Assembly: GCA_951406725.2 (NCBI GenBank)
Contig: OX597826.1
Span: forward strand, 36,270,001 to 36,334,000
Direction of reading: 5' to 3'
Origin: Octopus vulgaris
Taxonomy: Eukaryota
DNA length: 64,000 nt
Shown here piece after piece: positions 11,880 through 59,813 of the stretch. Position 1 is the stretch's first letter. Each line of letters starts with the position of its first letter. The notes below the pieces were generated by a model that searched no databases, had not been told where the DNA came from, and saw only the letters and a list, made by a program, of their open reading frames with translations. The translations under genes were made by a program, and so were the position numbers.

Positions 11880-12560
11880 GGTCAGGATTGTATATACTGG
11901 ACACTTTAAGTTCGAAGTTCCCGTCAGTCCTCTTTTGGTTTATATAGAGATGATGATTTAGCCATCTCTGGATCGCTGACGAGAATACCCTAGGTAGGCT
12001 TAGGAAGGACCTTATTCCCATTCTTAACTCCCTTAGACTCAAGTTTACGAGTGAGACCACCTTTACAATTGTTAATTTTTTTAGACGTTACGTTGGACTT
12101 GGGTACCTGTTCATAGAGGCCCTACCGCAAACCAAACGAAAGCTGTTGCACATTAACACAGCCTTCTTCCACCCATCTATCATGTTCAAGAGCCGAGTGA
12201 AGAGTGTCAGTAAAAGGATTTTGAGCCAGTCCTTCAGTAATGAAGTTTTCGATGCTGCAGCACCATCCTATTACAATGCGGTTTTGGCGTTCAGTGGGTT
12301 TAAGGACCAGATATCCTATATGCCAAGTCCTAACACCCACAAAAGAAAGCGCCACAGTAACGTCGTTTGGTTTGTCCCACCCTTCTCACTCAACGTCAAG
12401 AAGAATATTCCTTTGGGAAGGCCATTCCTTTGTAAAGTGTACAAACACTGCACGTAGTCACATAAATATGGGCGTTTGTTTAATAAACATGACCTAAAGG
12501 CTACCTTCAATTGAACGCCCTTAAACCACGAATAGAGGCAGAAATCTGATGAAGGGTTTA
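11880..12560 (+). mobile_element. Penelope-like (Naiad-type) RT C-terminal/thumb fragment
   Basis: GLYRDDDLA (~11937), LDVTLDLGT..RPYRKPNE, HPSIMFKSRVKSVSKRI..NEVFDAAAPSYYNAVLAFSGFK..KRKRHSNVVWFVPPFSLNVK. Truncated ctgatgaagggttt at ~12546. Confidence 0.85.
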
Positions 12561-15131: not shown

Positions 15132-15286
<155 letters not shown>

Positions 15287-15294
15287 GGAAATAT

Positions 15295-15510
15295 TAAAAT
15301 TACTAAGTCTCTCTAAAGGATATTACGGCAGCGTTACTGGATATTAATAGTTGTCGCCATACTAATATGGCAGTCTATAAATAAGACTAAAGCTGTCGCT
15401 GATTAGCTCCAAGAGGCCATCGCCTCTAGATAGCTATATGACACACGAACCTGCATCCATTACAACATTCGAACAGGGGAGGTCAGCCGCTTCACCTTGC
15501 TAGTCAGACA
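15295..15510 (-). mobile_element. Structured non-coding domain downstream of the hammerhead (pLTR/retrozyme-like)
   Basis: Homologous to 28085-28238 and 58080-58303, with compensatory changes in three hairpins. Confidence 0.6.
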
Positions 15511-15511
15511 T

Positions 15512-15552
15512 CTGCAGACATGTTTCAGGGTTGTTGCCCTTTATCAATGCAG
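15512..15552 (-). ncRNA. Minimal type-I hammerhead ribozyme, U3-A8 core variant
   Basis: Minus strand: ctgca TTGATAA aggg-caacaa-ccct GAAA c-at-g TC tgcag. Stem I 5 bp, stem II 4 bp, GUC site, palindromic catg stem III. Confidence 0.75.
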
Positions 15553-15720
15553 CGTAGTCAGAACCAGATATATATGTCCATATATGTATATATATAAACA
15601 CACATACATATATCCATATATGTATATGTATATATATATATGTATATATATATATACATATATATACATATATATATATACCCATACATATATATACACG
15701 TACATATATGGATATATATA

Positions 15721-20759: not shown

Positions 20760-21352
20760 AAGAAATTGTATAACATATATCAAAAAATATAACATGACTC
20801 AAGAAATGTATAATGTGTCAAGAAATTATAAACATCAAGAAATGGTATAACATAGACATCAAGAAATGGTATTACATGGATATCAAGAAATGATATAACA
20901 TAGACATCAAGAAATGGTATAACATGGACATCAAGAAATGGTATAACATGGATATCAAGAAATGGTATAACATGGACATCAAGAAATGGTATAACATGGA
21001 TATCAAAAATAGTATAACATGGACATCAAGAAATGGTATAACATGGATATCAAAAATGGTATTACATGGACATCAAGAAATGGTATAACATGGATATCAA
21101 GAAATGGTATAACATGGACATCAAGAAATGGTATAACATGGACATCAAGAAATGGTATAACATAGACATCAAGAAATGGTATTACATGGATATCAAGAAA
21201 TGGTATAACATAGACATCAAGAAATGGTATAACATGGACATCAAGAAATGGTATAACATGGATATCAAGAAATGGTATAACATAGACATCAAGAAATGGT
21301 ATAACATGGACATCAAGAAATGGTATAACATGGATATCAAGAAGTGGTATAC
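20760..21352. repeat. 24-bp minisatellite (catcaagaaatggtataacatgga)n, >20 units
   Basis: Directly visible; gives the MDIKKWYN ORF. Confidence 0.95.
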
Positions 21353-27559: not shown

Positions 27560-28870
27560 GCAAACCGAACAATAAGTACTGTAATAGGAATAACTTGGAT
27601 AAATTTGGATAAATACTATAAGAAAAATAAGTTTTAAGAAATATACACGAAACAGCAATAAAATGGAATTAGTGAACAAAACTTGAACCAGATGAACAAT
27701 ACTAATACGGAGCAAGTAAATATTAAATTTAATCATAAAAGCAAAGGACCAAAATCTATCTAAAACAGTAATAATTCTGAATACAAAAATGAAATAATAA
27801 ATAAGACAGAAGTCAAGAAAGCAGACGGAACTCAAGACCTTGATAATAATATTCATAAGAATAAGATAAAATAAAAAGGCGTACTCCATTTATAAATGAT
27901 ATTAACCCAGAAATAGATAATTTTAATAAAAATTCTAATAAAGTCAATATTATATGGTTTATAATTCCGTTTGCTAAATAAATTAAGAGTAGTAAAGATT
28001 TTTGCCAACATAACATGGCAGTCCTGGTTTAGGACGAATGTTGCTGTAATTTAGCCCCAGGAGACATCGTCTCCAGATTCCCTCTGTCGTATAGCCAGCT
28101 GGAGACGATGTCTCTTGGGGCTAAATCACAGCAACATTTATCCTAAACAAGGACTGCCATGTTATGATTGGCAAAAATCTACTCTAAAGTACTGTTGCTG
28201 AATATCTCTTGTTGCGAGATTTAAAAATACTAATTTCCAAATTAAGAGTAATTTAATTAAATTCTTTTATAGAGTGGTTTCCAAGTAAGGAAAATAAATA
28301 TAATGAAATAATTAACACAGATTTAGAGAGATTTGGTTTCTCTGTCTCTCTTAATGTTTCTCAGATTATTTTTTCACTGAATAACCAGAATTCGAACTCT
28401 CTCTATAACGGTAGAAATAAATCACATAACAACCTAAATTTTCCAAATTCTAATGAACGTCAAATTAGATCTCACAGTAGGGAAAGGAAGGGGACCCAAG
28501 TATACTACCAATTTAAACATAGAATTATGAAGAGAAAATTTAACGCTAAGGATAAGATTGAACACTAAAGATAAGATTGGTATTGATTACAGATTTATTG
28601 AAAAAGATAAAAATACTCATTGTGATTGTAAATTTAAAGATAAATGTAAGCTTAATAATTTTTGTAGACTGAAAGATGTTGTATATAGATGCAAGATAGA
28701 AAACGATGGACTAAATTACTATGACATTGGATCCACGTCAAATTTTATTGAATGTAGATTCGCCAACCACGAAAACACATCTAGAAACAAAAATAGATCA
28801 AACTCCACCAGTCTTAGTAAATTTATTTGGGAATTAAAGGACAAAAATGGGGATTTATGTTTGATTTGAC
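27560..28870 (+). mobile_element. Penelope-like (Naiad-type) thumb/linker plus GIY-YIG endonuclease fragment
   Basis: NIIWFIIPFAK*IKSN..WFPSKENKYNEIIN. ORF 28558-28869: CDCKFKDKCKLNNFC..VVYRCKI..YDIGSTS..RFANHE..NSTSLSKFIWELK. The 5' boundary is approximate. Confidence 0.85.
27992..28238. mobile_element. 247-bp foldback insertion with ~12-bp target-site duplication
   Basis: aaattaagagta at 27980-27991 and 28239-28250. Inverted arms 27996-28076 / 28099-28180. Confidence 0.85.
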
Positions 28871-40210: not shown

Positions 40211-40650
40211 TAAAAACTTTTACCTATTAAACCAACCATACTTAACCAAAATGTTCTTTCTGTTTATATCCAAAGTGACCAGATCTGACCCCTCACACCT
40301 GCCCTACAATTTCAGTCTAAAAATCAACAATCAACAAGCTTACGGCCATATCATGTTGAAAGCACCGGTTCTTGTCCGATCACCGAAGTTAAGCAATGTT
40401 AGTACTAGTTAGTACTTAGATGGGTGACCGCTTGGGAAACCTAGGTGCAGTAAGTGTAACATATCGTTTTGAATGGCAGTGCCCCAGCATGGCCACAGCT
40501 CATGAGCTGAAACTAAATGAAAATGAAAAAATGAAAATGAATCACATCATTTAAATCCCAAAGCTATGAAATAATGCATGATTAATTTAAACCAATGTGA
40601 ATAAATAAACATTGGATTTGACAGAGTAATCTGAATGCCGAAAGACTAAG
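40211..40650. mobile_element. piggyBac-type MITE interrupted by the 5S chimera
   Basis: Flanks align with 31939-32146 and rejoin at aatca (40329-40333 / 40540-40544). Confidence 0.6.
40338..40455 (+). pseudogene. 5S rRNA: Full-length 5S rRNA-derived copy (head of a retroposed chimera)
   Basis: gcttacggccatatcatgttgaaagcaccggttcttgtccgatcaccgaagttaagcaa...ttagtacttagatgggtgaccgcttgggaaacctaggtgcagtaagt, 118 nt. Solitary, with several substitutions. Confidence 0.9.
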
Positions 40651-46462: not shown

Positions 46463-46649
46463 ACCACTTGAAATCTATATTTGTGTCTACAAAATTTCAA
46501 TGGATCTATATTTGTATATACACAGATTGAAATATATGTTTGTATGAATAAAGTTTAAATGCATGTGTTTGTATATACACATAATGAAATGTACATTTGT
46601 ATATACAACACTTAAATCCCAAAGAATGTACAGAAATTATTGCTGGATG

Positions 46650-47340
46650 CTATGCAGGCATCTTTACAGTCGAAGATCAAACTGTTCCATCTCCATCACC
46701 TCTGATGCTGGACTCTATAACTACTATGAAATTTACACCAGCAATGCTGCAATGCCACCTTAAGAATAAATGTAATTATGCCTCTCCTGGTCTCGATGGT
46801 GTTACATACCTACTTCTCAAACACGGTGGGTACTTTCTTCTGAACCAACTTTCACTATTCTTTCAATTCTGTCTTGACAATGGTGTTACTTCCCTGGGCA
46901 TGGATACATTGAAACTCCGACGTCTGGCAACTGACTCGGCAGACACCCATAAAGTTATTAACCATCTTACTAACAATAACTCTGAACACCTTTTCAAATT
47001 CCACCTGTTTAACACCCATAGACATGTTTACAAAGTCAAAAAACAGTACAGCTCCCATGACTTTCAGAAACGTTTTTTCACGCTAAGGGTTGCTGAAGTA
47101 TGGAACAAACTGCTGGCATCAGTTGTTAGTTGTCAGAGCACTGCATCCTTCAAAACTTCCATGCTTCCTGAGATTCGCCAACACTACACCTGATTTTCTC
47201 CCCTCCATATACATACAGCCATGTATCTGACTCATACACTGTTCACTTCCCAGACATTTGTACATTACTGCATATGCTTTACACACACTTTTGACAAGTT
47301 GTGGTGCACCTGAGCAATGTACACAATAATTTCATTATAA
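46650..47340 (+). mobile_element. CR1/L2-clade LINE ORF2 derivative with the RT core deleted
   Basis: Pre-RT SPGLDGVTYLLLK..LSLFFQFCLDNGV is joined in frame to the C-terminal LGMDTLKLRRL..RFFTLRVAEVWNKLLASVV..ASFK. Confidence 0.8.
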
Positions 47341-56945: not shown

Positions 56946-57813
56946 ATTATACGTTCAGTCGCTTGTAAAAGTATAAAAGTTTGTAGATGAAAATGAATTA
57001 GAGTTTGTTGATTTATGATGAAGAGTAAATAAAAACTTATATTCTGGAAACAGGTCTCCCTTTGGAGAAATAAATATATACTGAGACAAATGTAGGAGCC
57101 GTTGTTATTAAGTAAATATGGTTTCTAAACATAAATATTATACATACAGGCCCTGGCAAATGAATGAAAGAGTAGAGGAAGAAGATATTGTATTGATTTG
57201 CCATGATGAGTAAAGAGAAAACATGATGTTCTGGACGCTTGTGGTTCTGCAGAAGAGAAGGAATAAAATAAATGCTGAGACCCAAATTGGTAAAAGTGTA
57301 TAGTTTTTATTCTATTTAGGTTTTTGTGTGCAACATATTTGCTTCTATATTTTCGGGCTCTGAAGAAGAATGGTTCTTCAAAGCATAGTATTTTCCTCTT
57401 CTCATTATAAATTAATCACACCTTAATTTAAATTTTATTTATGAAGTTTCATAGATTTAATCCATGGATTAACTTTTGTGGATTAATATTTGAGGATTTG
57501 CTTCTGCTAAAGCAAAGTATCACTGCACCTCATGGATTCTGGATTATATTGAACTGCAAATCCATATTTCCATTGTAACATTCTTGTATGTAATTGGTGC
57601 AAGTATTGCTGTATGTAGCAACAGGCATCAATGTGAAGTGGTTGGGATACTGTAAGTGAGATAAGTCTAAGTGGGAGTATGTGTAGTTTGTGATGAAGAC
57701 AAATAGTGTGAGCAACAGAGCCTCTTATTGTGGATAAGTAATGTTGTTGATATTCCTTTTATTTCTGTATATATACAGATTAAGTGTTACCAAGTGAGTA
57801 AAATGTTCTTTGT

Positions 57814-58303
57814 AGTAAAGATTGTTTGCCAACATAGCATGGCAGTCCTGGTTTAGGACGAATGTTGTTGTAATTTAGCCCCAATCTTTACTGAAAAATA
57901 CTGTTGCTGAATATCTCTCGTTGTGAGATTTAAAAAAACATAGTAATTTTCTAATTTATAGATCGGTGACTAGTTGTTACTTTGAAAACAATATATTTCA
58001 AACAGGAATTTGGCAGCACCACCTCTAGCCGAACAATTATTCTGTGAAGAGAAATAACCCAGAAATTGCGATACACAGATATTGTTTTGACCTGAGTGGG
58101 GGTGCTAGATTCCGTTGTTCGAAAATATAAGAACACAGATCGTGTCATATAGCCAGCTGGAGATGATGTCTCCTGAGGCTAAATTACAGCAACATTCGTC
58201 CTAAACCAGGACTGCCATGTTATGTTGACAAACAATCTTTACTCTAAAGTACTGTTGCTGAATATCTCTTATTGTGAGATTTTAAAATAGTAATTTTCTA
58301 AAA
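57814..58303 (+). mobile_element. Retrozyme/pLTR-like element: inverted 5' arm plus 351-bp direct-repeat unit with hammerhead remnant
   Basis: ctgttgctgaatatctc at 57901 and 58252. Inverted arms 57814-57883 / 58174-58243. tctgtg-aaga..GAAA ttgcga TA cacaga at 58041-58079. Confidence 0.65.
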
Positions 58304-59813
58304 TATTCTTTGCTGAGGAGTTCTAATAAGACTGAAACATATATGGTCTTTTGCCAGTTGGCTTGGAAGATCAGATCCACTCCAATCTACATCATCAATA
58401 TTGTCCCACTATGTCTATCAATTGATCCTACAAGAGTTATTTTCCTTCTTTATAATAATTCTGCTTTAAATATCCCTAGAGGGTTTACTTCAAACACTGA
58501 CTGCATAAATCATTTCAATTAAATATTTTTAAATTCTGTGTACTATATAGAAGATACCCTACTTTGTAGACCCTTCTATATTGACCCTAGAATGACAAAA
58601 TACAAGTCAGCCTTAGCAGGATTTCACTGAAATACTGGACTGCATTCTGCCAATCTTTCTGATAATTCTGCCAATTCCACTTTCCTTATATGACCAAAAA
58701 TTAACCAAAATCTTGATAACTGGGAACTTATGTTTTGGTATTTTCAAAGTGTTGTAAGAGCATGAGACCAAACAAGGCACAAAAAAAAAAAAAAAATCAA
58801 AATGAGTGGTTCATGGGAACTGAACGCACATCAATTTGTATGACTTATCGAAGAAACGCCTACAAGATACAGGTTCAATTCTTGTTAAGTTAATTATTTT
58901 TTACATATTTTTATTTCCATATATAACATATTTTTTTTTACCTTATATCTACTTTTACACCATATATTCTGTCTGTTTGTCCAAACACAGAAGAGAAAAA
59001 AAAAACTCACTTAAAAATGGGAAAAATATATTATGTAAAATTATTGATTTATTTTCATAGCAAATGTTTTAACTTTATCTCCTTTGAAATTCTTCGAAAA
59101 ATATTTTTTTCTTTAATATGATAGCCATTTGTTATGTTTCTAATTACTCTCATTGCTTTTCTCAAGAATTTACCAATTTCTTAAGTACATAACAACAAGA
59201 ACAAAAACATTATGAAGAAAATGTGATAAAATTCACTCCAAAATATTTGTGTAGTTTTTGTCTAGAAAGTTCTGTTGTTTTATTTTTCTTTATATATTTT
59301 TCTTTAGCCTTTATTATTAAATTGTTTTAAGGTACATCAATCATTAGCTGCATTCAAAAAGAAATTAGGCAATTTTTTTCTCAATAAAACAAAAAGCAAA
59401 AAAATTCAAAATTAAAATTTTAAAAAAAACTATTAGTATAACACTTGAAATGTGTGAAAGGCAGTTATTAATTAAAATAGATTAGAAATTCAAATAACAA
59501 AACTATTTATATAATATATATGTAGATAAGTATCTGTGTATATATGTATATATACAAATATATATATATGTGTGAGTGTGTGTGTATGTATATATATATG
59601 TGTGTATATATATAGATATGTGTGAGTATATATATATATATATATATTTATATACACACACACACATGTTCATATCTATATGCAAAAGTATACATACACA
59701 CACGGACATTTAATTTATGCTGGGGTATTATTGAAGTATATGTATAATTATGTACATACAGACATAATTATACATTGTTGCGTATGTCTCTCTGTGAGTG
59801 AATATATAAATAA

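What the first reader, a model, noticed from the sequence alone, without database searches (positions are those of the whole stretch)
57814..58303. 351-bp monomer plus inverted 5' arm: retrozyme/Penelope-style architecture
Seen: the same ~65-bp end segment occurs twice, 351 bp apart, with a hammerhead remnant between (stem I tctgtg/cacaga, core apparently missing CTG) and a 70-bp inverted arm in front. No recognisable coding content. Known: partial tandem plus inverted 5' segment is typical of PLE insertions, and animal retrozyme monomers are a few hundred nt. Inference: reverse transcription of a ~350-nt, possibly circular, template.
Basis: partly seen in the sequence, partly recalled or inferred. 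Interest (0 to 1): 0.7.

Follow-up and report, generated by a model that had tools for sequence, protein, structure and literature searches.

The report
Decayed Penelope-pasted hammerhead retrozyme copy
This is one old, broken copy of a roughly 350-base non-coding jumping element with thousands of relatives in this animal genome; the family carries a predicted self-cutting RNA motif, and the back-to-back shape of its insertions indicates that a Penelope-type enzyme likely copied it from both cut DNA strands, probably from a circular RNA.

Summary
Confirmed. Window 57811-58301 is one insertion of a dispersed, non-coding family (1,868 exact hits of a 20-nt motif, control 0) with a 353-nt unit. 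The family majority has an intact type I hammerhead with a palindromic helix III; this copy has lost 6 core bases and is dead. Insertions are two arms joined 5'-to-5': in 76 of 80 two-arm cases with both ends at fixed sites, one arm ends at unit position ~298 and the other at 353 (55-nt Penelope 'tail'), and a 9-13-bp target duplication flanks the whole (54 of 76; shuffled 1.5). Arms read through the ribozyme cut site with no pile-up (58 of 67), tandem units share private variants, and the fold covaries across sister families. Best reading: a non-LTR retrozyme mobilised by a Penelope-like enzyme from two internal start sites; a circular template is likelier than an uncut linear multimer but is not shown. 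No autonomous partner was found; RNA reads look like passive read-through. The scan reported the same architecture earlier for younger sibling families in this genome. New member of a known kind, with useful mechanistic footprints.

The parts
57802..57810 (+). Left target-site duplication (9 bp, one mismatch with the right copy)
   Evidence: Sequence; flanks printed; family-wide test 54 of 76 vs 1.5 shuffled
57811..57883 (-). Short arm without tail: unit positions 226-298, read on the minus strand; its outer end is start site 1 (position ~298)
57882..57883 (.). 5'-to-5' junction of the two arms, 2-nt overlap
   Evidence: L001; overlaps of 1-6 nt in 43 of 76 two-arm insertions
57882..57954 (+). 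Partial upstream unit (positions 285-353, with a 4-nt insertion): the terminal redundancy of the long arm
57955..58301 (+). Complete unit (positions 1-353 less a 6-nt deletion), 94% identical to the family majority over the whole arm
   Evidence: 0.942
58041..58079 (+). Type I hammerhead remnant: stem I intact, 6 nt of CUGAUGA core deleted, predicted cut after 58073
58247..58301 (+). 55-nt 'tail' (positions 299-353) present on one arm only; outer end is start site 2
58302..58310 (+). Right target-site duplication
27989..28243 (.). Second, shorter two-arm copy of the same family (no hammerhead), with an 11-bp target duplication
15244..15614 (-). Copy of sister family B (about 64% identical unit), beside a TA repeat
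   Evidence: (L205)

Best explanation
This is a dead copy of a 353-nt non-coding hammerhead retrozyme family, likely pasted by a Penelope-like reverse transcriptase that extended both cut DNA strands from two internal start sites, probably on a circular RNA. Shown: unit, copy number, hammerhead in the majority, two fixed 3' ends 55 nt apart, one per arm, random 5' ends, tail-out joining, 9-13-bp target duplication round the whole, read-through of the cut site, compensatory pairing between sister families. Inferred: (1) a rare source with two hammerheads is transcribed and cuts itself as a dimeric ribozyme (palindromic helix III); (2) the long stem flanking the ribozyme holds the ends for ligation to a circle; (3) a PLE protein binds the conserved stem-loops at positions ~185-300, nicks AT-rich DNA on both strands about 9-13 bp apart and primes one cDNA at ~298 and the other at 353; (4) each cDNA stops at about 1% per base, sometimes after more than one round; (5) the two cDNA ends are joined through 1-6-nt microhomology. 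The 6-nt core loss in this copy is private decay.
For: Family size: 352 exact hits of a 25-nt core and 1,868 of a 20-nt 3' motif, reversed-pattern controls 0. Majority hammerhead: 6-bp stem I, CUGAUGA, 3-bp stem II, GAAA, 8-nt palindrome; two copies co-fold as the dimeric ribozyme at -29.3 vs 2 x -11.3 kcal/mol. 35 of 49 hammerhead-spanning units in the motif-chosen sample keep the core boxes. 208 of 230 segments end at ~298 (101) or ~353 (107); 1 ends at the cut site. 90 of 91 two-segment clusters are tail-out, none the reverse. 76 of 80 use one end of each kind (binomial p 3e-18). Arm lengths uncorrelated (Spearman -0.07, n 76). Target duplication 54 of 76 vs mean 1.5, max 5 in 200 shuffles. 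No excess of 5' ends at the cut (6 observed, 5.4 expected); 58 of 67 arms pass it; stop rate 0.008, 0.010, 0.0095 per nt before the cut, after it and in the second round. Tandem units of one arm share derived non-CpG variants 10.9/kb vs 3.7 (max 6.9) between arms (35 arms); the two arms of one insertion 3.8/kb vs 1.9 (max 3.67 in 300 shuffles). Circular fold z -7.2; 24 of 76 pairs changed on both sides across families A, B, D, 0 of 500 shuffles as high, slid controls 4-9. PMC11167929 (text parts 1-2 of 4 read): a PLE protein extends both strands from two internal RNA sites that bound the tail. Resident PLEs here show the same tail-out pairs, a 31-nt tail and palindromic hammerheads.
Against: No autonomous PLE sharing the unit was found in 130 PLE loci (about 110 distinct places) of three protein lineages; these are a small part of 6,136-30,321 first-look candidates. 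RNA reads (3 raw runs of a coded organism, about 6% of each read) come equally from both strands, from many diverged copies, follow the 3'-biased genomic profile and show no ends at the cut: no sign of an abundant circle today; library strandedness and selection are unknown. PMC11167929 found hammerhead cleavage dispensable in vitro and uncut RNA the main substrate, so read-through does not prove a circle. Sharing between the two arms is weak (20 of 76 insertions share any variant) and fits one source lineage as well as one molecule; gene conversion was not excluded. Only 1 of 183 arms spans two hammerheads. Covariation rests on 9 related sequences from 3 families and a structure derived from them. 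The tail (55 nt) is longer than the 30-40 bp given in PMC8557442. The sample is weighted to contig C1 and needs an exact 3' motif.
Confidence: 0.8

Rival explanations
1. Same PLE-driven two-strand insertion, but the template is an uncut linear multimer transcribed from one or a few tandem master arrays; the hammerhead is a passenger or acts at another step.
For: PMC11167929: cleavage not needed, unprocessed RNA dominant in vitro. No RNA ends at the cut and no excess over the genomic profile. Shared variants among tandem units also follow from a recently homogenised array.
Against: Longest arm seen is 1,091 nt, about 3 units; stop rate is constant into the second round, so linear daughters are shorter than their source and the lineage needs a way to regrow multimers; four sister families keep the whole unit collinear, with compensatory changes in the stem that would join the cut ends. 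No genome-wide search for long arrays was possible (only 40 of 3,759 candidates scored).
Confidence: 0.3
2. The copies are 5'-truncated terminal repeats (pLTRs) of an autonomous PLE, or local satellites grown from such a repeat by unequal crossover (model in 10.64898/2026.07.22.740005, Discussion read).
For: Tail, inversion and hammerhead are all pLTR traits (PMC8557442, PMC4209133 passages); sister family B shares the U3-A8 core and helix III palindrome with a resident 781-aa PLE.
Against: Arms that extend upstream continue into the previous unit, never into a PLE frame; each multimer is dispersed and has its own target duplication; no PLE examined carries the unit.
Confidence: 0.07
3. A MITE with 79-bp terminal inverted repeats, moved as DNA.
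For: Inverted ends and a 9-bp duplication in this one copy.
Against: The right end lies 55 nt beyond the inverted repeat; inner ends and total length vary freely; either arm can be the longer (25 vs 51 of 76); head-to-tail multimers and a conserved ribozyme fold.
Confidence: 0.01
4. One cDNA folds back and copies itself, making the inverted arm (self-priming), as opposed to two separately primed cDNAs.
For: Junction overlaps of 1-6 nt in 43 of 76; slight sharing of variants between arms; in the window copy the tail-less arm lies wholly within the tailed arm.
Against: Fold-back needs the copied arm to be nested in the first; the tail-less arm reaches further 5' in 51 of 76 and the tailed arm in 25 of 76, with uncorrelated lengths.
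Confidence: 0.05

Closest known systems
Metazoan non-LTR retrozymes (Cervera and de la Pena 2020, PMC7229834, passages seen; mussel 350-390-bp units, axolotl 330/350-bp units)
   Same: Non-coding unit of about 350 nt, GC 41%, type I hammerhead with weak palindromic helix III predicted to work as a dimer, strongly self-paired, target duplication above 4 bp, co-resident PLEs.
   Different: Mostly sub-monomer two-arm insertions rather than long tandems; two fixed 3' ends with a tail; expression as circular RNA and self-cleavage not shown here; this copy has no core. The word 'inverted' has 0 hits in that paper's main text.
EN+ Penelope-like elements: PAc/Poseidon (Frangieh et al. 2024, PMC11167929, parts 1-2 of 4 read) and the PLE architecture in Craig et al. 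2021 (PMC8557442, passages seen)
   Same: Two internal start sites bounding a tail, 5' truncation, partial tandems, inverted truncated copy at the 5' side, AT-rich targets, hammerhead upstream of the start sites.
   Different: No open frame; tail 55 nt rather than 30-40; start sites 173 and 228 nt downstream of the cut; each insertion uses one site of each kind (76 of 80), whereas PAc in vitro showed no difference of start site between strands.
Non-autonomous PLEs of Chlamydomonas (MRC1 in PMC8557442; Chlamys-N4 in PMC9977147, passages seen)
   Same: Non-coding, PLE-mobilised, short 5'-truncated and head-to-tail insertions.
   Different: Those generally match an autonomous family at the 3' end and belong to a clade described as lacking canonical hammerheads; here no matching PLE was found and the hammerhead is conserved.
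Vertebrate non-LTR retrozymes as PLE derivatives (Li, Clavereau, Pollet 2026, 10.64898/2026.07.22.740005; part 1, passages and Discussion read)
   Same: Retrozymes proposed to use PLE machinery.
   Different: Their evidence is co-occurrence and pLTR phylogeny, and tandems are ascribed partly to local amplification; here the evidence is the insertion footprint, and the unit has evolved as its own lineage.

Membership tests
Metazoan non-LTR retrozyme | Type I hammerhead in the repeat unit (family level) | tested here: met
   Majority of 29 copies; 352 exact cores; 35 of 49 units keep core boxes; covarying stem I and C3-G8/U3-A8 swap in sisters
Metazoan non-LTR retrozyme | Intact hammerhead in this copy; two consecutive complete units ('active' criterion of Li et al. 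2026) | tested here: not met
   6-nt core deletion, found in no other held locus; one hammerhead only. The copy is a dead member; 1 of 183 arms spans two
Metazoan non-LTR retrozyme | Non-coding head-to-tail unit of 150-450 bp, GC below 50% | tested here: met
   353 nt, GC 0.41, no long frame, arrays to about 3 units
Metazoan non-LTR retrozyme | Highly self-paired RNA | tested here: met
   Circular fold z -7.2 (antisense -5.8; window copy -3.0); 24 of 76 pairs with double changes
Metazoan non-LTR retrozyme | Target duplication longer than 4 bp | tested here: met
   54 of 76, mostly 9-13 nt including end microhomology
Metazoan non-LTR retrozyme | Expressed as linear and circular monomer RNA | tested here: inconclusive
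   Reads present but look like read-through of genomic copies, both strands, no ends at the cut; library type unknown, organism coded
Metazoan non-LTR retrozyme | Self-cleavage in vitro | not testable with these tools
   Only folding predictions
Penelope-like element (autonomous) | Open frame with RT and GIY-YIG | tested here: not met
   None in the element or joined to 117 sampled loci
Penelope-type insertion footprint | Tail at one end only, between two internal start sites | tested here: met
   Ends at ~298 and 353 in 208 of 230 segments; one of each in 76 of 80
Penelope-type insertion footprint | Inverted 5'-truncated copy at the 5' side and partial tandems | tested here: met
   90 of 91 two-segment clusters tail-out
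Non-autonomous PLE derivative | 3' end homologous to a resident autonomous PLE | tested here: inconclusive
   No match in 130 PLE loci; only a small share of the genome's PLE copies was examined
MITE | Fixed length with symmetrical terminal inverted repeats | tested here: not met
   Asymmetric ends, free inner ends, multimers

The most novel reading that the evidence does not exclude
Each insertion is written by a dimeric Penelope enzyme sitting on one circular retrozyme RNA, with one active site fixed at each of the two start sites, so that every event uses exactly one tailed and one tail-less start; and these circles have been a self-sustaining RNA lineage (families A-D, up to about 37% diverged with the fold conserved) that no longer shares its end with any host PLE.
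Probability: 0.35. Interest if true: 0.7.

Novelty: new member of a known kind. Interest (0 to 1): 0.45.

Why it matters
Which enzyme moves animal retrozymes, and how Penelope elements make their tail and inverted ends, are open questions in the papers read (PMC7229834 names PLEs as candidates; PMC11167929 leaves later steps unvalidated). This family gives countable footprints: one start site per strand in 76 of 80 events, a target duplication round the whole two-arm unit, and unhindered read-through of the ribozyme cut. These make a direct in vitro test possible with a 353-nt RNA. The copy itself is inert and has no evident host role.

Tried and rejected
Rfam: only a 5S rRNA-like copy at gathering level; no hammerhead hit at the element even at E 10. 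A suspected pile-up of 5' ends at the cut site failed the test (6 vs 5.4); a milder excess at positions 160-170 (20 vs 8, uncorrected p 3e-4, best of 223 overlapping windows) may be a stall in the long stem and was not pursued. Search for the autonomous partner: a recalled Pfam accession was not in the library; GIY-YIG, a 574-aa PLE frame and a PLE fragment of the window gave three PLE lineages, none carrying the unit; profile hits near PLEs (L149, L245, L252, L296, L315, L318/L354, L360) were read as separate insertions; two same-strand hammerheads 3.9 kb apart on C2 had no PLE protein match between them. Sequencing-run search: no RNA holder listed on record; no conclusion drawn. Whether this very locus is transcribed stays untested. 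Paper searches: 'hammerhead ribozyme' + 'octopus' gave 4 listed papers, none by title or abstract start on such a family; searches found no title or abstract on strand-coupled start sites; only CC-licensed PMC and bioRxiv are searched, supplements were not opened (those of PMC7229834 and the 2026 preprint may list cephalopod families). Sequence look-up in earlier scan findings: none.

Full report
Observation. The features are present at the stated place. A 73-column direct repeat (86%) starts at 57882 and 58233, 351 apart, and 57805-57883 is a 91% inverted copy of 58174-58252. Stem I of a hammerhead (58041-58046, 58074-58079) is there without a CUGANGA box, and Rfam does not see it. The window lies in a 2.8-Gb animal genome of 227 contigs; that it is octopus-like is my inference from size and repeat content, not a tool result.

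Family. The element has 3,759 first-look candidates, 40 scored, on many contigs. Exact motif counts are 352 for a 25-nt hammerhead core and 1,868 for a 20-nt 3' motif, with reversed controls at 0. Aligning 29 long copies gives a 353-nt unit, GC 0.41, copies 92-97% identical to the majority. I number the unit so that 353 is the common 3' end (window 58301). The majority carries a type I hammerhead at 87-131: 6-bp stem I, CUGAUGA, 3-bp stem II, GAAA, an 8-nt palindrome as helix III, cut after 125. Two copies co-fold into the dimeric form (-29.3 vs 2 x -11.3 kcal/mol), the arrangement described for metazoan hammerheads in PMC4209133 (passages seen). The window copy lacks 6 core bases; no other held locus has that deletion. 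In the motif-chosen sample 35 of 49 hammerhead-spanning units keep the core boxes.

Architecture. To avoid choosing copies by their shape I took 128 loci selected only by an exact 3' motif (91 of the first 100 places, all on C1, and 50 of 58 places), which gave 122 unique clusters. Of 230 segments, 101 end at 288-308, 107 at 341-353 or just beyond, and 1 near the cut. Of 91 two-segment clusters, 90 are minus-then-plus (joined at their 5' ends), none the reverse. Of the 80 with both ends at a fixed site, 76 have one arm ending at ~298 and one at 353; 2 and 2 have like ends (p 3e-18). The other 31 clusters are 24 single arms and 7 with three or four segments. A target duplication of 7 or more matched bases surrounds the whole in 54 of 76 (shuffled pairing: mean 1.5, max 5), so each two-arm unit is one event. 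The window copy fits: duplication at 57802-57810 and 58302-58310, tail-less arm 226-298 on the minus strand, tailed arm 285-353 plus a full unit.

What the arms say about mechanism. Arm lengths are uncorrelated and of similar size (medians 190 and 156); either arm may reach further (25 vs 51 of 76), which excludes fold-back of one cDNA as the rule. This matches PMC11167929 (parts 1-2 of 4 read): a PLE protein nicks and extends both strands and starts at two internal RNA sites that bound the tail. What the genome adds is that the two sites are used one per strand; that paper saw no strand difference in vitro. Resident PLEs behave alike: a young 775-aa family with 76 of 76 scored copies 100% identical over the queried 574 aa shows tail-out pairs and a 31-nt tail.

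Template. A linear monomer cut by the ribozyme would stop all cDNAs at 126. It does not: 6 ends observed vs 5.4 expected, 58 of 67 arms pass, 19 of 183 enter a second round, and the stop rate stays near 1% per base. So the template is a circle or an uncut multimer. Tandem units within an arm share derived non-CpG variants at 10.9/kb against 3.7 between arms (35 arms, which include loci chosen by similarity to the window), and the two arms of an insertion at 3.8 against 1.9 (this test was prompted by earlier finding e1-8662707). The unit folds as a circle at z -7.2, with a long stem (36-92 with 126-183) that would hold the cut ends together. Three sister families exist: B (64%, 2,844 candidates, about 360 nt, in TA repeats, U3-A8 core), C (63%) and D (about 75%). 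Across 9 units of A, B and D, 24 of 76 pairs change on both sides, 16 of them in stem I and its extension; shuffles and slid controls fall short, with the caveat that the sequences are related and the structure was derived from them. I put a circle at about 60%, an uncut multimer at about 30%.

Against. No partner PLE was found: 130 PLE loci of three protein lineages do not carry the unit, although a 781-aa family has the same U3-A8 core and palindrome as family B. RNA reads from three raw runs (1,565-1,954 reads each, about 6% of each run) are split evenly between strands, come from many diverged copies, mirror the 3'-biased genomic profile, include the inversion joints, and show no ends at the cut: passive read-through, with no sign of an abundant circle, in libraries of unknown type from a coded organism that may be another species. 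The family is 3-8% decayed and probably inactive. Transcription of this locus itself was not tested.

Comparison and novelty. It works like, and at family level is, a metazoan non-LTR retrozyme (PMC7229834, passages), with circular expression and cleavage untested; the copy fails the intact-ribozyme criterion. It is not an autonomous PLE and not a MITE. The link of retrozymes to PLEs was proposed in PMC7229834 and argued by phylogeny in 10.64898/2026.07.22.740005 (part 1, passages, Discussion); rolling-circle copying was proposed for PLEs in PMC4209133. Five paper searches showed no title or abstract on this family or on strand-coupled starts; supplements were not seen. This scan's earlier notes describe the same two-arm footprint for younger 359-495-nt families in this genome (unchecked AI notes, not counted as support); a look-up by this sequence found none. 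Verdict: real, a new member of a known kind, an inert copy whose family offers well-counted footprints of the Penelope mechanism. Interest 0.45.

Noticed in passing
window 27989-28243: Second two-arm copy of the same family with an 11-bp target duplication, lying just upstream of decayed PLE protein fragments (28278-28445, 28621-28863).
   Followed up: partly
window 15244-15614 (-): Copy of sister family B (about 360-nt unit, U3-A8 hammerhead, TA-repeat target; 2,844 first-look candidates).
   Followed up: partly
L354:3854-4119, L245:6578-6823; L271-L273: Two further sister families (C with an intact CUGAUGA hammerhead and its own palindrome; D about 75% identical to A).
   Followed up: partly
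L281-L310 (e.g. G000:C2:16702935-16707846): Very young 775-aa PLE family: 76 of 76 scored copies 100% identical over the queried 574 aa, tail-out pairs, 31-nt tail, TA targets, hammerhead-like motif with a CCGAAGA core; likely still active.
   Followed up: partly
L241-L244, L260: 781-aa PLE family with pLTRs carrying a U3-A8 hammerhead and the same helix III palindrome as retrozyme family B; an extra 330-480-aa open frame lies upstream of the main one.
   Followed up: partly
L345-L347: A third young PLE lineage with a 960-aa frame and many protein-identical copies; no hammerhead found by my pattern in its 3' region.
   Followed up: partly
L263:4292-4639: A PLE RT fragment joined directly, same strand, to the 5' end of a family B arm: template switch or nested insertion.
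   Followed up: no
L186:1318-2051: Family A copy with a 154-nt sub-unit (positions 163-325) repeated head to tail three times.
   Followed up: no
window 40338-40456 (+): 5S rRNA-like copy (Rfam 85.5 bits), several mismatched pairs; probably a dispersed pseudogene or SINE head.
   Followed up: no
window 11957-12457 (+), 46588-47193 (+): Frames that look like a decayed PLE fragment and a LINE RT fragment (recalled resemblance, not tested).
   Followed up: no
window 20832-21351: 24-bp tandem repeat, 21.8 copies, 92% matches, open in both directions.
   Followed up: no
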